Source: Longimicrobiales bacterium (GTDB lineage: Bacteria; Gemmatimonadota; Gemmatimonadetes; Longimicrobiales; Gaopeijiaceae). Taken from it: DNA of 64,000 bases. Under the pieces are notes generated by a model. The model was not told the origin of the DNA, did not search any database, and saw only the letters and a program-made list of their open reading frames with translations. The stretch is from NCBI GenBank assembly GCA_963422615.1, contig OY730414.1, forward strand, positions 1 to 64,000, written 5' to 3'. The translations under genes and the position numbers were made by a program. Shown piece by piece: positions 45,207 through 53,590 of this stretch. Position 1 is the first letter of the stretch; the number at the start of each line of letters is the position of its first letter.

Positions 45207-46817
45207 TCATTTCGTTTTCTCCTGAGTCGCAAGGAAGCCCAGGCGCCCGAGATTGACTTCGATGGCGGCATTGAGCCGCGCCCCTTCGGCCTGTTGCTCG
45301 CGCAACTGCGTGACGAGGCGCTGCATTTTGTCCTCGAAGGGTTCGCCGTCGTCCGGCTGTGGTTCCGCGCCGACGTAGCGGCCGGGGGTGAGCACGTGGC
45401 CGTGTTTGCGTATTTCTTCCAGGGAGGCGCTTTTGCAAAAGCCGGGGATGTCGGCGTAGGCACCGGTGCTCTCCTCGCGGACCGCCGCGCCGTCAGGTAG
45501 GCGCCAAGCGTGATAGGTATCCGCGATGCGGGCGATGTCCTCGTCCGTGAGCTCGCGGTGGGTGCGGTCCACCATGCGGCCCAGCTTGCGGGCGTCGATG
45601 AAGAGAATCTCGCCCCGACGGTCGCGGAACTTCCCGTTGCCGCGATTTCGTGACAGGAACCATAAGCAGGCCGGAATCTGCGTCGAGTAGAAGAGCTGGC
45701 CAGGCAGCGCGACCATGCAGTCCACCAAATCGGCTTCGATCAGGCTCTTGCGGATCGCGCCCTCACCCGATTGCGCCGACGTCATGGAGCCGTTGGCGAG
45801 CACGAAGCCGGCGATGCCGTTCGGCGCCAAGTGATGCACCATGTGCTGCACCCAGGCGAAGTTGGCGTTGCGCTTCGGCGGGACGCCGTATTGCCACCGG
45901 GGATCGGCGACCAGCCGCTCCCGGCCCCAGTCCTTGACGTTGAACGGTGGATTGGCGAGAATGAAGTGCGCCTTCAGGTCCGGGTGGCGGTCGTCGTGGA
46001 AGCTGTCGCCATGGGCAATTTGTCCGTCGATGCCACGAATGGCGAGATTCATCTTGGCCAGCCGCCATGTCGTGTAGTTGGACTCCTGGCCGTAGATGCT
46101 GATGTCCGTCTTGGCCTTACCGCCGTTGCCGTTGCCGCTGGTATGCGCCTGTATGAATTCGATGGATTGCACAAACATGCCGGACGAGCCGCAGCAGGGA
46201 TCGTAGACCCGACCCCGCCAAGGCTGAAGCACTTCTACCAGCAGCTTCACCACGCAGCGCGGGGTGTAAAACTCCCCGCCCTTCTTGCCCTCGGCGCTCG
46301 CGAACTGCGACAGGAAATACTCGTAGACGCGACCGAGCACGTCCTTTGAGCGCGCCTCGGCGCTGCCCACCATGATATTGCCGACCAGGTCGATGATCTG
46401 GCCGAGCCGCTGTTTGTCCACCGCCGGACGGGCGTAGTCCTTGGGCAGCACGTCCTTGAGCACCGGGTTGTCATGCTCAATGGTGGCCATGGCGTCGTCC
46501 ACGAGCCCGCCAATGCTCGACCGGCGGGCTTGACCTTGCAGCATCGACCAACGGGCTACGGGGGGCACCCAGAAGATGTTCTCCGCGGCGTACTCGTCTC
46601 GGTCTTCGGCGGCCTCCGCGCCCCATTCGGCCAGCACGATCGCATGGCGCTCCTCGAAGGCGTCGGAGATGTATTTCAGGAAAATGAGGCCGAGGACCAC
46701 ATGCTTGTACTCGGCTGCGTCCATCGAGCCGCGCAGGGCGTCGGCCATCGCCCACAGCTCCGCCTCGTAACCCGTGATCGCCCCACCACCCCCTGGCGCA
46801 GATGTCGTTCCGGTCAT
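45207..46817 (-). CDS. hsdM: Type I RM methyltransferase subunit
   Basis: [32 protein letters not shown]. Confidence 0.96.
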
Positions 46818-46831
46818 GATCCCTTGTTTCC

Positions 46832-50092
<3,261 letters not shown>

Positions 50093-50298
50093 GGCGCTAG
50101 TTGTCCTCACGCAGCGGAGGAAGTTCTTCCAACCAGGGCCAGCCATTCCCCGAAATGACGGCACTCGTTGCGTTTCGCGTTAGCCGTATCCGAAGCGATG
50201 TCTAAGTCGTGGGCTGTCCGCCAGCGCAAATTGGCTAGCCATTCTAGGGCAACGGCCTCAATGTCCATTTCGGTGAAGGTGATCATAGGACGCTTTCT

Positions 50299-51273
50299 TT
50301 ACTTGTTATAGTGTTTGTCAAATTCTGTCATGATGTTGGGGTTGAAGAAGATCTTCTTGGCACTTTTGGTATTACCTGGATCGAGAAAGCGGGAACGTGC
50401 GGATCGCTCATCGGTTTCGAGACACTTCCTAATCTCATGATATTTCTTATTCGCTTTGAAATTCTTGTATCGTTCTCTACACCTTTCCGTTAATGTGCCG
50501 TAATCCCACGGGTACCTCTCTCGAATGTTCTCTTCCGTCAATCTGACTGTCAATGCCGAAGAGTTAGTTGTGACATGGACTGGCAACGCGTCTTTTGATT
50601 TCGACCTCGTGAACTTAAGTTCGACATTCACACTTACCGAATAAGAGGATTCAGGGTCAGACTCAGGTTCATCAATATCATTCACGAACGCCAGGAAATT
50701 TTTCTCCTCAGTATTGAGAAATGAACTCTCCACGTTAGATGGCAGAGCCATAAACGTGAGTGGCATTAGGTAAAGATTGAATTCGATAACGTCACGCTGA
50801 AACCATTCTCGGACTACATTCACGAAATTCTTGACACAAGCCGCTCCAATTTCGTACAGACGGGTATAGAAGGCTGGAGATTCATTGTAAAAATGTGTGG
50901 CACAATGCCGAAACTCAAGCATTAGCTCTATGTTTTGGGATGCAGAAGGGTCAAGGATTTTTTTGTTGACCAACTGTTTAGTCAAATAGCCCAATTCATG
51001 GGTGATAGGTGCGCGAGATCTAGTTCTCTTAATGTATTTCTTCGCACTTCTTTTCCCAGACCGAGATGAACGATTTTCATAAACGTAAAGGCTCCGTTTC
51101 TTGTTTCCATGCAGGCCTAACCATTTAGCCTTCAGGAGGAGTTCCCAGCCATTGATAGCAAGGATAGCAAACGACTCATTTCGATAAGGGAACCCTGGTT
51201 TGTTGTAAATCTCAATGGCGGCCACCATTGCATGTACCGCCCGGTCTAATAATTCCTTTGAGATTGACTTCAT
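50299..51273 (-). CDS. DUF3644-like protein (predicted HEPN-type) with C-terminal EC042_2821-like domain
   Basis: AAIEIYNKP...YRNESF...NGWELLLKA; RHCATH (RX4H); markedly AT-rich. Confidence 0.8.
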   Translation of the reverse strand: MKSISKELLDRAVHAMVAAIEIYNKPGFPYRNESFAILAINGWELLLKAKWLGLHGNKKRSLYVYENRSSRSGKRSAKKYIKRTRSRAPITHELGYLTKQLVNKKILDPSASQNIELMLEFRHCATHFYNESPAFYTRLYEIGAACVKNFVNVVREWFQRDVIEFNLYLMPLTFMALPSNVESSFLNTEEKNFLAFVNDIDEPESDPESSYSVSVNVELKFTRSKSKDALPVHVTTNSSALTVRLTEENIRERYPWDYGTLTERCRERYKNFKANKKYHEIRKCLETDERSARSRFLDPGNTKSAKKIFFNPNIMTEFDKHYNK

Positions 51274-51283
51274 ATTACTTAGC

Positions 51284-52981
51284 TCACTGATGGGATGAAT
51301 TTCCCATCCTAACCTCCCCTGACACCAGCTTCGGCAGCAGTGCGTCGCGTAGGGCGGCGAGGGTGCGGGATTCCGCTGTGTTTTTCTCAATGCAGGAGTC
51401 CATGGGACTAACGTAGGCGTCAAATGCTTCGATAAGTTCTAATCTGGGATTTAAGAATTGGAGCGATTCAAATTGCTTTTTGTTGATTGCCCCGAATACC
51501 GTCCCACTGTGTTCATATATACTGATATTCCCTTGTATCGACCAAGCCGAATAATAGGTAAACGAACTTGAAACGGATTTGTGCCGGAGTGCAGCAACGC
51601 CACGACCGATGCAGCACTGCTCCCAAGCCATGTTAATGTCGCCGACCGGCGCCCTGACGCTTATCAAAGTATCTCCAGGCCAAGCAATCCGAGTCGGAGC
51701 ATTACAGAACTTACGGGTCTCTGGATATCGGAAATCAAAATCAGCCCTGCCCTGGAAGAACGGAAGGCCATCGCCATCGTCATTGTACGTGTGTCCCGGG
51801 GGTGATTGTCCCATAGTCAGACTAAAGCAGTCTACCAGTGCCCTCACCTCCCACCCCTCCGGTATCTCGCCCAATCCCGAATCGACGAAGCGGTCGGGGA
51901 ACAGGGCCGCAATTTCCGGGTCCATCCTGTCGAGATAGGCGCGGGCGCGTTCGGCGGGCCAATCCGCCTTGTCTGTGCCATCACTCACCTTAGGGGGAGA
52001 GGATGTGCGCTTGGCTGGCCGCAGGGCGGCTTTGGCGCGGACGGGGTCGAAATCGACGAACCAGGACTTGAACAGGGCGCGGGCCATCGCCTCCAGCGTC
52101 TCGTTCATGCGGCGGTTCAGTTCGATCTTGTCGTCCAGTGTGCCGAGGATGTGGGCGATGGCGCGTTGTTCGGGGAGGGGTGGGAGAGGGATTTCAATGG
52201 TACGCAGGTATGTCACCGGCCGCGCAATGGCTGGAACGCCCACCTGGGACGAATTGGCGAGAAGCTGATGCTGCCCTTCCGGTGAAGTGAAATACAAAGC
52301 GATAAATTCAGGAATGGCTTTTGAACGTTTGCAACGCATGTAGAATTGGCGTTGAGAAATAACATAGCGATCAAACTTGGATCGAGCAGGAATATAGGCG
52401 ACCTGTCCAATATTGCCTGCGTGCGTGAAAATCACATCTCCACGCCTAACATTAGCGTTTGCAAGCCGCTGTGCATGCTCATAGCTAATAAAGTTGAAGC
52501 CGGGAGAGTCATCGACTCTGACGCCGTGGAGATGTTGTCCGCTGATAATGGGAACGCCGTCCGGGACGAAGGTAGAGACCTTGATTGAGGAGCCGAACGG
52601 TCCCATGGCGACTTTTTCAGAGATGTCTTCTATCGTGGCAGTAGGCCATTCCAGATATGAAGAACTACACTCCCCCCTCTTCCCCACCAACACCACATGC
52701 TCCCGCTCGATGACCCGCTGGAAGCTCTCGGACGTGCTCGCCCAGTCCACAATGTCCACGCGAAAGGGCAGTGGGGAGTCCGTGAAGGCGGCTCGCAACC
52801 TTGCCGTGCGGTCAATCCCCAAGGGTTCGTCCGTCATCAACGCGAGGTCGAGGTCGGAGGTCTCCCGTGCCTTCCAGGCCACGCGCGACCCGAAGGCGCG
52901 CACCTCCAGGGTGGGCACGTGCTCGCGCAATATGCGCCGAACCGTCTCGAGATCCGTGGGGTGGATGTCGATCGGTGTCAC
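51284..52981 (-). CDS. hsdS: Type I RM specificity subunit with N-terminal minimal nucleotidyltransferase (MNT) domain fusion
   Basis: FGSRVAWKARETSDLDL (GSX10DXD) and LPFRVDIVD; then TRD1, PPLPEQRAIAHILGTLDDKIELN, GEIPEGW, TRD2, LRDALLPKLVSGE. Confidence 0.93.
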   Translation of the reverse strand: MTPIDIHPTDLETVRRILREHVPTLEVRAFGSRVAWKARETSDLDLALMTDEPLGIDRTARLRAAFTDSPLPFRVDIVDWASTSESFQRVIEREHVVLVGKRGECSSSYLEWPTATIEDISEKVAMGPFGSSIKVSTFVPDGVPIISGQHLHGVRVDDSPGFNFISYEHAQRLANANVRRGDVIFTHAGNIGQVAYIPARSKFDRYVISQRQFYMRCKRSKAIPEFIALYFTSPEGQHQLLANSSQVGVPAIARPVTYLRTIEIPLPPLPEQRAIAHILGTLDDKIELNRRMNETLEAMARALFKSWFVDFDPVRAKAALRPAKRTSSPPKVSDGTDKADWPAERARAYLDRMDPEIAALFPDRFVDSGLGEIPEGWEVRALVDCFSLTMGQSPPGHTYNDDGDGLPFFQGRADFDFRYPETRKFCNAPTRIAWPGDTLISVRAPVGDINMAWEQCCIGRGVAALRHKSVSSSFTYYSAWSIQGNISIYEHSGTVFGAINKKQFESLQFLNPRLELIEAFDAYVSPMDSCIEKNTAESRTLAALRDALLPKLVSGEVRMGNSSHQ

Positions 52982-53397
52982 GGGTTGCGCTTCCTCAGTT
53001 CTTGCAAAAGAAGACGCATATCGCGCAGGAACTCGTCAATCAACAGGACCGTTTCCTCCGCCCGGTTCACATCGTATGTGTGGGAAGTCTTGTTCCGCAG
53101 TTCGCGGTAGCGGATGTAGGGCAGGGCTTCGCGAATGATCCCGGCATCGGCCGCGTCACGCATCCGGTCAGCGAAGTCCATCTCCCGCAAGGCGTCGGGA
53201 TTGGCGACGATTTGCGCCAATTGTCTTTGAATCATCTTGACCGCCAGCTCGTAGGTGAACTCGAACGCCTGGATGGTGGCGGCTCGGAACTGCTCTCGCA
53301 GACCGGAGTCCGTACGGGCGAGGTCGCTGTGCAGATAGTCGAAGCTCCTCCGGAGCTGATCGACGGCGTCTTCCAGGGACGAGTAGTCGAGCTTCAC
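52978..53397 (-). CDS. HEPN protein, HI0074/nucleotidyltransferase substrate-binding family
   Basis: ATIQAFEFTYEL, RNKTSHTY (RX4HxY); GGAGG before GTG; ATGA overlap with MNT::hsdS. Confidence 0.9.
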   Translation of the reverse strand: MKLDYSSLEDAVDQLRRSFDYLHSDLARTDSGLREQFRAATIQAFEFTYELAVKMIQRQLAQIVANPDALREMDFADRMRDAADAGIIREALPYIRYRELRNKTSHTYDVNRAEETVLLIDEFLRDMRLLLQELRKRNP

Positions 53398-53399
53398 TT

Positions 53400-53532
53400 C
53401 GATACCTCCCGCCTCTCCGGTATTTCCCCTCAAGTCGGTTGCGAATCGACAAAGCGGTAGGGGAAATGGACCGCAATCTCCGGGTTCATGTTATCAAAGT
53501 AGGCGCGGGTGCGTTCCGCGGGCCAATCCGGC
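53400..53532 (-). pseudogene. Degenerate copy of the hsdS central conserved region
   Basis: Reads DWPAERTRAYFDNMNPEIAVHFP-(frameshift)-RFVDS...GEIPERREV; intact copy at about 51845-51970 reads DWPAERARAYLDRMDPEIAALFPDRFVDSGLGEIPEGWEV. Confidence 0.85.
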
Positions 53533-53590
53533 TCGGGCCCCGGCAACGCCCGGAAGCCGCCGGAGCCGATCAAACAGCCGTCTCGGTCAG

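What the first reader, a model, noticed from the sequence alone, without database searches (positions are those of the whole stretch)
51284..53397. MNT antitoxin fused to type I HsdS and coupled to a HEPN toxin: candidate self-guarding RM system
Seen: the 565-aa ORF has about 100 aa of MNT with an intact GSX10DXD motif, in frame with a complete two-TRD HsdS. The upstream HEPN gene (RNKTSHTY) overlaps it by ATGA. Known: in HepT/MntA pairs the MNT adenylylates a Tyr next to the RX4H motif and silences the RNase; PrrC is a HEPN anticodon nuclease held in check by a type I RM complex. Inference: tethering the antitoxin to HsdS could make toxin silencing depend on the state of the RM complex, giving abortive backup defence against anti-restriction proteins or addiction to the specificity gene. 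I cannot tell from here how often this fusion has been reported.
Basis: partly seen in the sequence, partly recalled or inferred. Interest (0 to 1): 0.85.

Follow-up and report, generated by a model that had tools for sequence, protein, structure and literature searches.

The report
Antitoxin fused to restriction specificity subunit
In this bacterium and many others, a predicted antitoxin enzyme is built onto the front of the DNA-recognition subunit of a restriction enzyme, right behind the gene for a predicted RNA-cutting toxin; the pair is a swappable cassette that likely serves as back-up defence, but whether the restriction enzyme itself controls the toxin is untested.

Summary
The 565-aa ORF is an HI0073-like MNT (GSX10DXD intact) in frame with a two-TRD HsdS, behind an HI0074-type HEPN (RX4HXY). 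The overlap is GTGA, not ATGA. Contigs from 3 samples span the junction.

The fusion is widespread. The usual order is hsdM-HEPN-MNT::hsdS-(cargo)-hsdR; in this window the order is permuted. All 120 of the 120 best long MNT relatives keep the motif and HsdS, and they carry 23 TRD1 families. Over 43 loci HsdM is about 81% identical, while the HEPN-MNT pair is swapped as a unit, and fused MNTs are not one clade (AU p=0.006). A G-loop Trp (W36) marks many RM-linked MNTs: 11 of 28, against 1 of 61 stand-alone, in loci not used to find it.

Against strict coupling: the linker is unconserved, intact HEPN persists beside truncated hsdS, Acetobacter keeps the genes unfused, and HsdS tolerates foreign fusions.

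Best reading (0.47): an RM-resident toxin-antitoxin cassette whose antitoxin dose rides on HsdS. A true RM-sensing guard gets 0.27. Addiction to hsdS is unlikely. No description was found in 10 literature searches or in the scan's earlier notes. Zymomonas mobilis ATCC 10988 carries a complete, testable copy.

The parts
52978..53397 (-). HEPN toxin gene, HI0074/PF08780 class, 139 aa, GTG start with GGAGG ribosome-binding site; RX4HXY motif at 53097-53074
51284..52981 (-). MNT::HsdS fusion gene, 565 aa; its start overlaps the HEPN stop (GTGA)
52682..52981 (-). MNT domain (aa 1-100), HI0073-like; GSX10DXD at 52891-52847; RM-associated W36 at 52876-52874
52652..52681 (-). unconserved linker (aa 101-110), no Met, low pLDDT
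51317..52651 (-). HsdS core: TRD1 (about aa 111-262), central conserved region with family insert (about 263-377), TRD2 (about 378-510), C-terminal conserved helix
50299..51273 (-). cargo gene DUF3644 (PADLOC PDC-S19), HEPN-family domain with an RX4H motif
50167..50289 (-). decayed stub of an hsdR 5' end (about 50% aa identity to hsdR starts of relatives)
46832..50092 (-). hsdR, intact nuclease and DEAH motor motifs
45207..46817 (-). hsdM, intact motif I and NPPF; lies last here instead of first
53394..53534 (-). scar: remnant of an hsdS central conserved region (53534-53403, 66% aa, 83% nt to the window's own) joined to the last few codons of an hsdM end in front of HEPN

Best explanation
This is a HEPN-MNT (class I HepT/MntA-type) gene pair lodged in the slot between hsdM and hsdS of one type I restriction family, with the MNT fused in frame to HsdS; the MNT likely still silences its HEPN by adenylylating Tyr108 on its own, and the fusion likely serves to make antitoxin one-for-one with HsdS, so that the predicted RNase would be released as abortive back-up when the supply of the restriction complex stops. 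Shown: anatomy, motifs, recurrence, cassette swapping as a HEPN-MNT unit on a conserved HsdM/HsdS scaffold, repeated fusion of different MNT lineages, and the lack of a separate HsdS start in most copies. Inferred from homologues: RNase toxicity and AMPylation. Inferred only: that loss of antitoxin supply (host shut-off, turnover of HsdS, low ATP) is the trigger and that the outcome is phage defence. On this reading HsdS is a carrier and expression link, not a sensor.
For: GSX10DXD is intact in 120 of 120 top long relatives, all with the HsdS conserved region, and in 94 of 94 HsdS-fused proteins among 150 length-blind hits. HEPN with intact RX4HXY lies directly upstream in 38 of 46 assessable fused units (48 found, 2 cut by contig ends). 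Across 43 loci MNT identity tracks HEPN (rho 0.77) far more than HsdM (0.31), the conserved region (0.35) or TRD1 (0.07); median identities are HsdM 81%, MNT 47%, HEPN 31%, TRD1 19% (kin are not independent). Where HEPN is deleted the MNT motif has decayed (L074, second Asp to Asn), and the inner MNT of some tandem MNT-MNT::HsdS proteins is degenerate (L036, P0012, P0015). The linker is 5-34 aa, unconserved, with Met in 21 of 129, and has low pLDDT. PF08780/PF01909 pairs with both motifs are class I HepT/MntA (PMC7641770, passages). The Legionella pair, whose structures are hits for both window proteins, is AMPylated by an MNT that lacks the alpha-4 helix (PMC11586414, passages). HsdS tolerates large fusions: GFP at the C-terminus (PMC2914225, abstract) and HsdM at the N-terminus (PMC6158711, passages).
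Against: No experiment exists on any member and no trigger is identified. W36 is kept in 91% of 129 fusions while its neighbours vary and is rare in stand-alone MNTs (1 of 61), which a purely passive carrier does not explain. HEPN is dead or lost in 8 of 46 fused units, and the MNT motif is still intact in 7 of those 8, so the decay test rests on few cases. If AMPylation is stable, stopping antitoxin synthesis would release only newly made toxin (inference), which weakens the shut-off trigger.
Confidence: 0.47

Rival explanations
1. True guard: MNT activity or stability is gated by the state of the M2S/R2M2S complex, possibly through W36, so anti-restriction proteins or disassembly switch the antitoxin off and release HEPN, as with PrrC or Ronin but through a covalent switch.
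For: Fusion recurs in several MNT lineages (AU test rejects one clade, p 0.0056, 41 rows). Where HEPN-MNT precedes an hsdS it is nearly always fused: 48 fused units against 3 cleanly separate and 3 frameshifted (a sample biased by the query); in the HsdM-anchored samples 18 of 21 cassettes run on into the HsdS conserved region. W36 occurs in 65 of 74 fused against 0 of 31 stand-alone representatives and is the strongest column contrast; in fresh loci it occurs in 7 of 19 fused, 4 of 9 RM-adjacent and 1 of 61 stand-alone MNTs; W-bearing fusions are not one clade either (p 0.007). Precedent: PrrC (PMC3710099, PMC12707154) and Ronin, whose toxin is suppressed by HsdMS and triggered by Ocr/ArdA (10.1101/2023.04.06.535777, passages).
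Against: The linker has no conserved length or sequence. 12 of 19 fresh fused MNTs lack W. The independent-pairs test had only 1 well-supported pair and no power, and recombination within MNT can mislead the tree. MNTs as little as 13% identical occupy the same slot, which is hard to square with one allosteric interface. Intact HEPN persists beside truncated hsdS. The same HsdS family also accepts DUF559 and GIY-YIG inserts in its central region, so it takes passengers easily.
Confidence: 0.27
2. Selfish or neutral lodger: the cassette parasitises a much-recombined slot. The fusion persists only because the MNT start is now the sole start for hsdS and because incoming cassettes cross over inside the MNT tail. 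There is no defence benefit.
For: Proteins with different MNT lineages share the window's MNT tail, linker and TRD1 (P0023, P0026, P0033, P0039, P0056), which points to crossovers in the tail. Stacked cassettes (L202; L036) and tandem MNT-MNT fusions look like replacement intermediates. HEPN is dead in 8 of 46 fused units. The slot is empty or holds other cargo in 25 of 30 hsdM loci of one proteobacterial class sample.
Against: The cassette fills 16 of 29 hsdM loci in the own-phylum sample and all 9 HEPN copies of one genome lie behind hsdM. There are at least five divergent exchangeable cassette types, and W36 is conserved.
Confidence: 0.17
3. Addiction to the specificity gene: the fusion kills cells that lose or break hsdS.
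For: Deleting the whole gene would remove the antitoxin while the upstream toxin remains (from the sequence).
Against: Point damage in hsdS spares the N-terminal MNT. 6 loci keep an intact HEPN motif with truncated or absent hsdS. TRD1 is exchanged freely behind a constant MNT (23 families among 119).
Confidence: 0.05
4. The tethered MNT has a second substrate (an RM subunit, an invader protein or cut DNA ends) and HEPN is its partner or regulator.
For: The motif is kept in 7 of 8 fused units with dead HEPN, and W36 lies in the G-loop near the nucleotide site (G-loop placement from PMC11586414).
Against: MNT co-varies with HEPN, not with HsdM, and it decays in L074 and in inner tandem copies.
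Confidence: 0.04

Closest known systems
Class I HepT/MntA (type VII TA), PF08780/PF01909 branch: H. influenzae HI0074/HI0073 (PDB 1jog, 1no5), L. pneumophila HEPN-MNT (8xeh; PMC11586414), S. oneidensis HepT/MntA (PMC7641770)
   Same: RX4HXY in HEPN, GSX10DXD in MNT, adjacent coupled genes, fold (1no5 rmsd 0.7 A, 47% identity)
   Different: The MNT is the N-terminal domain of HsdS and sits in a type I RM operon; the toxin gene comes first; W replaces the usual G in the G-loop; activity is untested here.
PrrC / EcoprrI
   Same: HEPN-family RNase encoded inside a type I RM operon and proposed as second-line defence (PMC3710099, PMC12707154; passages)
   Different: PrrC is an ABC-ATPase-HEPN protein held inactive by binding the RM complex. 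Here HEPN is a small stand-alone domain with an enzymatic antitoxin, and it is the antitoxin that is attached to the RM. No RM-dependent control has been shown.
Ronin (RonA + HsdMS; 10.1101/2023.04.06.535777)
   Same: A toxin gene linked to hsdM/hsdS whose suppression rides on Hsd subunits
   Different: Ronin lacks hsdR and uses a 61-aa membrane toxin; here hsdR is intact and the toxin is a predicted RNase with a fused modifying antitoxin.
Defence genes embedded in multi-gene systems (Payne et al., 10.1101/2024.01.29.577857; HEC-08 with DUF3644)
   Same: Cargo nested in a defence operon; the window's DUF3644 gene is of that kind
   Different: In the passages read the embedded genes are separate ORFs, and no antitoxin fused to a core subunit is mentioned.
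Fused MNT-HEPN FhepTA (PMC13000451)
   Same: MNT working as one domain of a larger protein
   Different: There MNT is fused to its toxin; here it is fused to HsdS.

Membership tests
Class I HepT/MntA (type VII TA) | HEPN of PF01934 or PF08780 with RX4HXY | tested here: met
   PF08780 87.3 bits (cut-off 31.8), TIGR01987 73.5 (55.8); R101/H106/Y108
Class I HepT/MntA (type VII TA) | neighbouring PF01909-clan MNT with GSX10DXD | tested here: met
   PF18765 40.4 bits and PF01909 23.5 bits, both over cut-off; motif at aa 31-45. NCBIfam NF047752 (MntA equivalog) scores 38.9, under its cut-off of 60.
Class I HepT/MntA (type VII TA) | HEPN is a toxic RNase and MNT neutralises it by AMPylating the Tyr | not testable with these tools
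   inferred from PMC7641770 and PMC11586414 (passages)
Type I restriction-modification system | hsdR, hsdM and a two-TRD hsdS with intact motifs in one locus | tested here: met
Type I restriction-modification system | site-specific methylation and restriction by the fused HsdS | not testable with these tools
   no methylome available
PrrC/RloC anticodon nucleases | ABC-ATPase domain fused to HEPN | tested here: not met
   the 139-aa HEPN has only PF08780
RM guard systems (PrrC-like, Ronin-like) | toxin release on inhibition of the RM complex | not testable with these tools
   needs an Ocr/ArdA/phage challenge
Ronin | hsdMS without hsdR plus small membrane toxin RonA | tested here: not met
   hsdR is intact and the toxin is a HEPN

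The most novel reading that the evidence does not exclude
A widespread, undescribed class of self-guarding type I RM systems. The specificity subunit carries a toxin-adenylylating antitoxin whose activity is gated by the state of the RM complex (with W36 as a contact), and both the DNA-recognition domains and the HEPN-MNT guard are swapped as independent cassettes on one conserved scaffold.
Probability: 0.27. Interest if true: 0.86.

Novelty: new variant of a known kind. Interest (0 to 1): 0.64.

Why it matters
The fusion is common (16 of 29 hsdM loci in the own-phylum sample, 4 of 30 in a proteobacterial one, and a cultured Zymomonas plasmid) yet is hidden under the annotation 'restriction endonuclease subunit S'. 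The physiological role and trigger of HepT/MntA pairs are open questions (stated in PMC7641770). A form hard-wired to a type I RM subunit makes a role in phage defence directly testable with fused versus split, W36G and DxD alleles. If RM state gates the antitoxin, it would be a new way for restriction systems to guard themselves against anti-restriction proteins.

Tried and rejected
Complex prediction of MNT (1-100) against the HsdS core (108-560): no verdict, score 0.01, controls not folded; not used as evidence.

Expression: no RNA holder was listed; the raw-read run X12 laid nothing; runs with small shares were not used.

Z. mobilis ZM4 hsdSp as a ready-made knockout test: rejected, because pZM32 carries a different system with a 420-aa HsdS and no HEPN/MNT gene annotated in the locus.

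Internal start giving free HsdS: the window's linker has no ATG, only GTG/TTG codons at aa 96-99 inside the MNT tail; Met occurs in 21 of 129 linkers. Not excluded, not favoured.

Independent-pairs test for W36: uninformative. The first tree forced at least 6 label changes, but after dropping 21 distant or degenerate rows and the W column a single origin was not excluded by starred branches alone. The AU tests used 41 and 36 rows picked after an earlier tree had been seen.

Promoter scan: 5 consensus hits against 1.8 expected, none upstream of HEPN; uninformative.

Literature: 10 full-text searches, of which some were aimed at the fusion, plus term look-ups in 13 papers, found no description of an MNT::HsdS fusion. 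Figures were not visible. The one supplement held for PMC3710099 is only 4,325 characters and had no hit; its Figure 5 and Additional file 1 show RM_TRD neighbourhoods that I could not see, and bioRxiv supplements are closed.

Full report
OBSERVATION. The minus strand of 53397-45207 reads HEPN (53397-52978), MNT::hsdS (52981-51284), DUF3644 (51273-50299), hsdR (50092-46832), hsdM (46817-45207). The HEPN-to-DUF3644 part lies in a GC dip (0.49-0.55 against about 0.65). The 565-aa ORF has an MNT at aa 1-100 with GSX10DXD, a 10-residue linker and a complete HsdS. AlphaFold with 129 aligned fusions gives pLDDT 91.8 and pTM 0.77, with the linker as the main low-confidence stretch. The model matches HI0073 (1no5, rmsd 0.7 A) and solved HsdS subunits. 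HEPN is of the HI0074/PF08780 class (best structure hit 1jog, E 3e-21) with RX4HXY. The overlap is GTGA rather than ATGA. Contigs from 3 of 4 runs laid span the junction without gaps. This is the only type I RM and the only TIGR01987 gene found in the 2.57-Mb genome.

DISTRIBUTION. A scan of species genomes with the MNT alone gave 70 loci. Of the 21 with at least 64% identity, 16 are in-frame fusions. Among proteins of 310-989 aa, the best 120 of 329 MNT hits all keep GSX10DXD and the HsdS conserved region, and 119 scorable TRD1s fall into 23 families at 50% identity. In a length-blind profile search of 50%-identity representatives, 94 of the best 150 are HsdS fusions, 34 more have long tails and 22 are short; clustering inflates fusions because their TRDs differ. 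The usual order is hsdM-HEPN-MNT::hsdS-(cargo)-hsdR, seen in MAGs labelled Acidobacteriota, Gemmatimonadota, Spirochaetota, Chloroflexota, Rhodothermota and Pseudomonadota and complete on Z. mobilis ATCC 10988 pZMOB01, where the fusion is annotated only as subunit S. Searches anchored on hsdM, blind to the fusion, found the cassette behind 5 of 30 loci in a proteobacterial class sample (4 fused or open to the edge, 1 unfused) and an MNT behind 16 of 29 in the own phylum (15 running into HsdS; two loci are identical copies and several overlap earlier ones). One genome has 9 HEPN copies, all behind hsdM. Three Acetobacter plasmids have the same layout with separate MNT and hsdS genes.

MODULAR STRUCTURE. 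Over 43 fused loci with all parts, median pairwise identity is HsdM 81%, conserved region 74%, MNT 47%, HEPN 31%, TRD1 19%. MNT tracks HEPN (rho 0.77), HsdM and the conserved region weakly (0.31, 0.35) and TRD1 not at all (0.07) (kin are not independent). So one scaffold carries two separately exchanged cassettes: the TRDs and the toxin-antitoxin pair. At least five MNT-HEPN types occur in the slot. An AU test rejects one clade for fused MNTs (p 0.0056; 21 fused, 20 stand-alone rows chosen from 105); this cannot tell repeated gain from repeated loss, and mosaic MNTs can mislead it. A route for repeated fusion without repeated selection is visible: different MNT lineages share the window's MNT tail, linker and TRD1, stacked cassettes exist (L202, L036), and tandem MNT-MNT::HsdS proteins occur, some with a decayed inner copy. 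The same HsdS family takes DUF559 and GIY-YIG inserts in its central region (10 and 1 of 22 proteins chosen for unusual length or architecture). Joints in the laid contigs that skip about 500 nt between the MNT tail and the conserved region fit TRD1 exchange in the same communities, but their sides are short.

A SIGN OF SPECIALISATION. Position 36, four residues after GS in the G-loop, is Trp in 65 of 74 fused and 0 of 31 stand-alone representatives (21 distant or degenerate rows dropped from 131, 5 RM-adjacent rows not counted). It is held in 91% of 129 fusions while positions 34, 35 and 37 vary. In loci fetched after I had noticed it, and not identical to earlier ones, it is in 7 of 19 fused, 4 of 9 RM-adjacent and 1 of 61 stand-alone MNTs. 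Among the 150 representatives it is in 84 of 94 fusions and 5 of 22 short proteins, several of which look like truncated fusions. Among 120 short MNTs, 30 have it. W-bearing fusions are not one clade with the column removed (p 0.007). Against over-reading: two fused lineages and L213 lack it, and the independent-pairs test had no power. What W36 touches is unknown.

NATURAL BREAKAGE. Of 48 fused units in 151 loci, 46 can be assessed: 38 have an intact RX4HXY HEPN and 8 have it disrupted (L002 insertion, L003-L005 stop, L012 His lost, L072 deletion, L073 degenerate, L074 deleted). The MNT motif is lost in L074 and kept in the other 7. Conversely, HEPN stays intact beside a truncated or missing hsdS in L010, L140=L141, L153, L167 and L244, and in L021 even the MNT is frameshifted; MAG indels may explain some of these. 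This argues against addiction to hsdS and shows that an MNT without HsdS is tolerated next to its toxin.

MECHANISM. By homology the HEPN is predicted to be an RNase silenced by AMPylation of Tyr108. PMC7641770 defines class I pairs to include PF08780/PF01909, and PMC11586414 shows AMPylation by a short MNT of this branch (both read as passages). Because the MNT start overlaps the HEPN stop and most linkers have no Met (108 of 129), HsdS can in most copies be made only together with its antitoxin; this follows from the sequence. I favour (0.47) an autonomous MNT carried by HsdS, with toxin release when supply of the fusion stops. The guard reading (0.27) is supported by repeated fusion, W36 and the PrrC and Ronin precedents, and opposed by the variable linker, the interchangeable divergent MNTs, unfused versions and the known tolerance of HsdS to fusions (PMC2914225 abstract; PMC6158711 passages). 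A neutral lodger gets 0.17, addiction 0.05 and a second substrate 0.04.

LOCAL HISTORY. The window's operon is permuted: hsdM comes last. HEPN is preceded by a remnant of an hsdS central region joined to what matches the last codons of hsdM in relatives, and an hsdR start stub lies before hsdR. This suggests duplication and deletion among similar operons, an idea also noted for another genome in e1-3120168. HEPN kept a GGAGG site 7 nt before its GTG.

NOVELTY. The parts are known, and HEPN-RM linkage was catalogued in PMC3710099, whose passages list HEPN fusions to nucleases, helicases and ATPases and do not mention MNT fused to HsdS. I found no description of this fusion in 10 searches or in term look-ups in PMC4621449, PMC12839542, PMC3710099, 10.1101/2024.01.29.577857, PMC7641770, PMC13000451, PMC8432527, PMC12707154, PMC11586414, 10.1101/2023.04.06.535777, PMC6158711 and PMC2701414 (passages only; PMC2914225 abstract and outline). 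Unseen figures, supplements and subscription papers may hold it. The scan's notes had no such finding. Verdict: a real, common, apparently undescribed variant; interest 0.64.

Noticed in passing
window 45207-53534: Operon order is permuted (HEPN-MNT::S-DUF3644-R-M) against the usual M-HEPN-MNT::S-R, with an hsdS central-region remnant and an hsdM-end scar in front of HEPN; L060 has R-M-HEPN-MNT::S.
   Followed up: partly
window 50299-51273: DUF3644 / PDC-S19 cargo gene with an RX4H motif, a second HEPN-family gene in the same operon; DUF3644 is the N-terminal domain of the tested defence gene HEC-08.
   Followed up: partly
window 50167-50289: Decayed copy of an hsdR 5' end between the cargo gene and hsdR.
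   Followed up: partly
L036 6525-11227 (also L037, L138): Two complete hsdS genes in tandem, each behind its own HEPN-MNT; the second has two MNTs with the inner one degenerate.
   Followed up: partly
G044 (L003-L005, L008, L137, L139-L142): One genome with 9 type I RM operons of this family, each with a HEPN-MNT cassette of three types; three share a stop at the HEPN Tyr codon.
   Followed up: partly
P0008, P0011, P0013, P0044, P0047, P0051, P0054, P0068, P0111, P0124, P0126, P0175; P0106: HsdS proteins of this family with an in-frame DUF559 nuclease-like domain, or GIY-YIG (P0106), inserted between the conserved region and TRD2.
   Followed up: no
L016 5680-6900: A Fic-like gene (label from recalled motif) has replaced HEPN between hsdM and a frameshifted MNT::hsdS.
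   Followed up: no
L038-L042, L054, L057-L066, L107-L115: Fibrobacter MNT-like proteins that lack the DXD acids and have no HEPN hit nearby: a possibly inactive, repurposed MNT lineage.
   Followed up: no
L073, L283, L292: A recurring HEPN allele without the RX4H motif kept at full length in front of an intact MNT::HsdS in related genomes.
   Followed up: no
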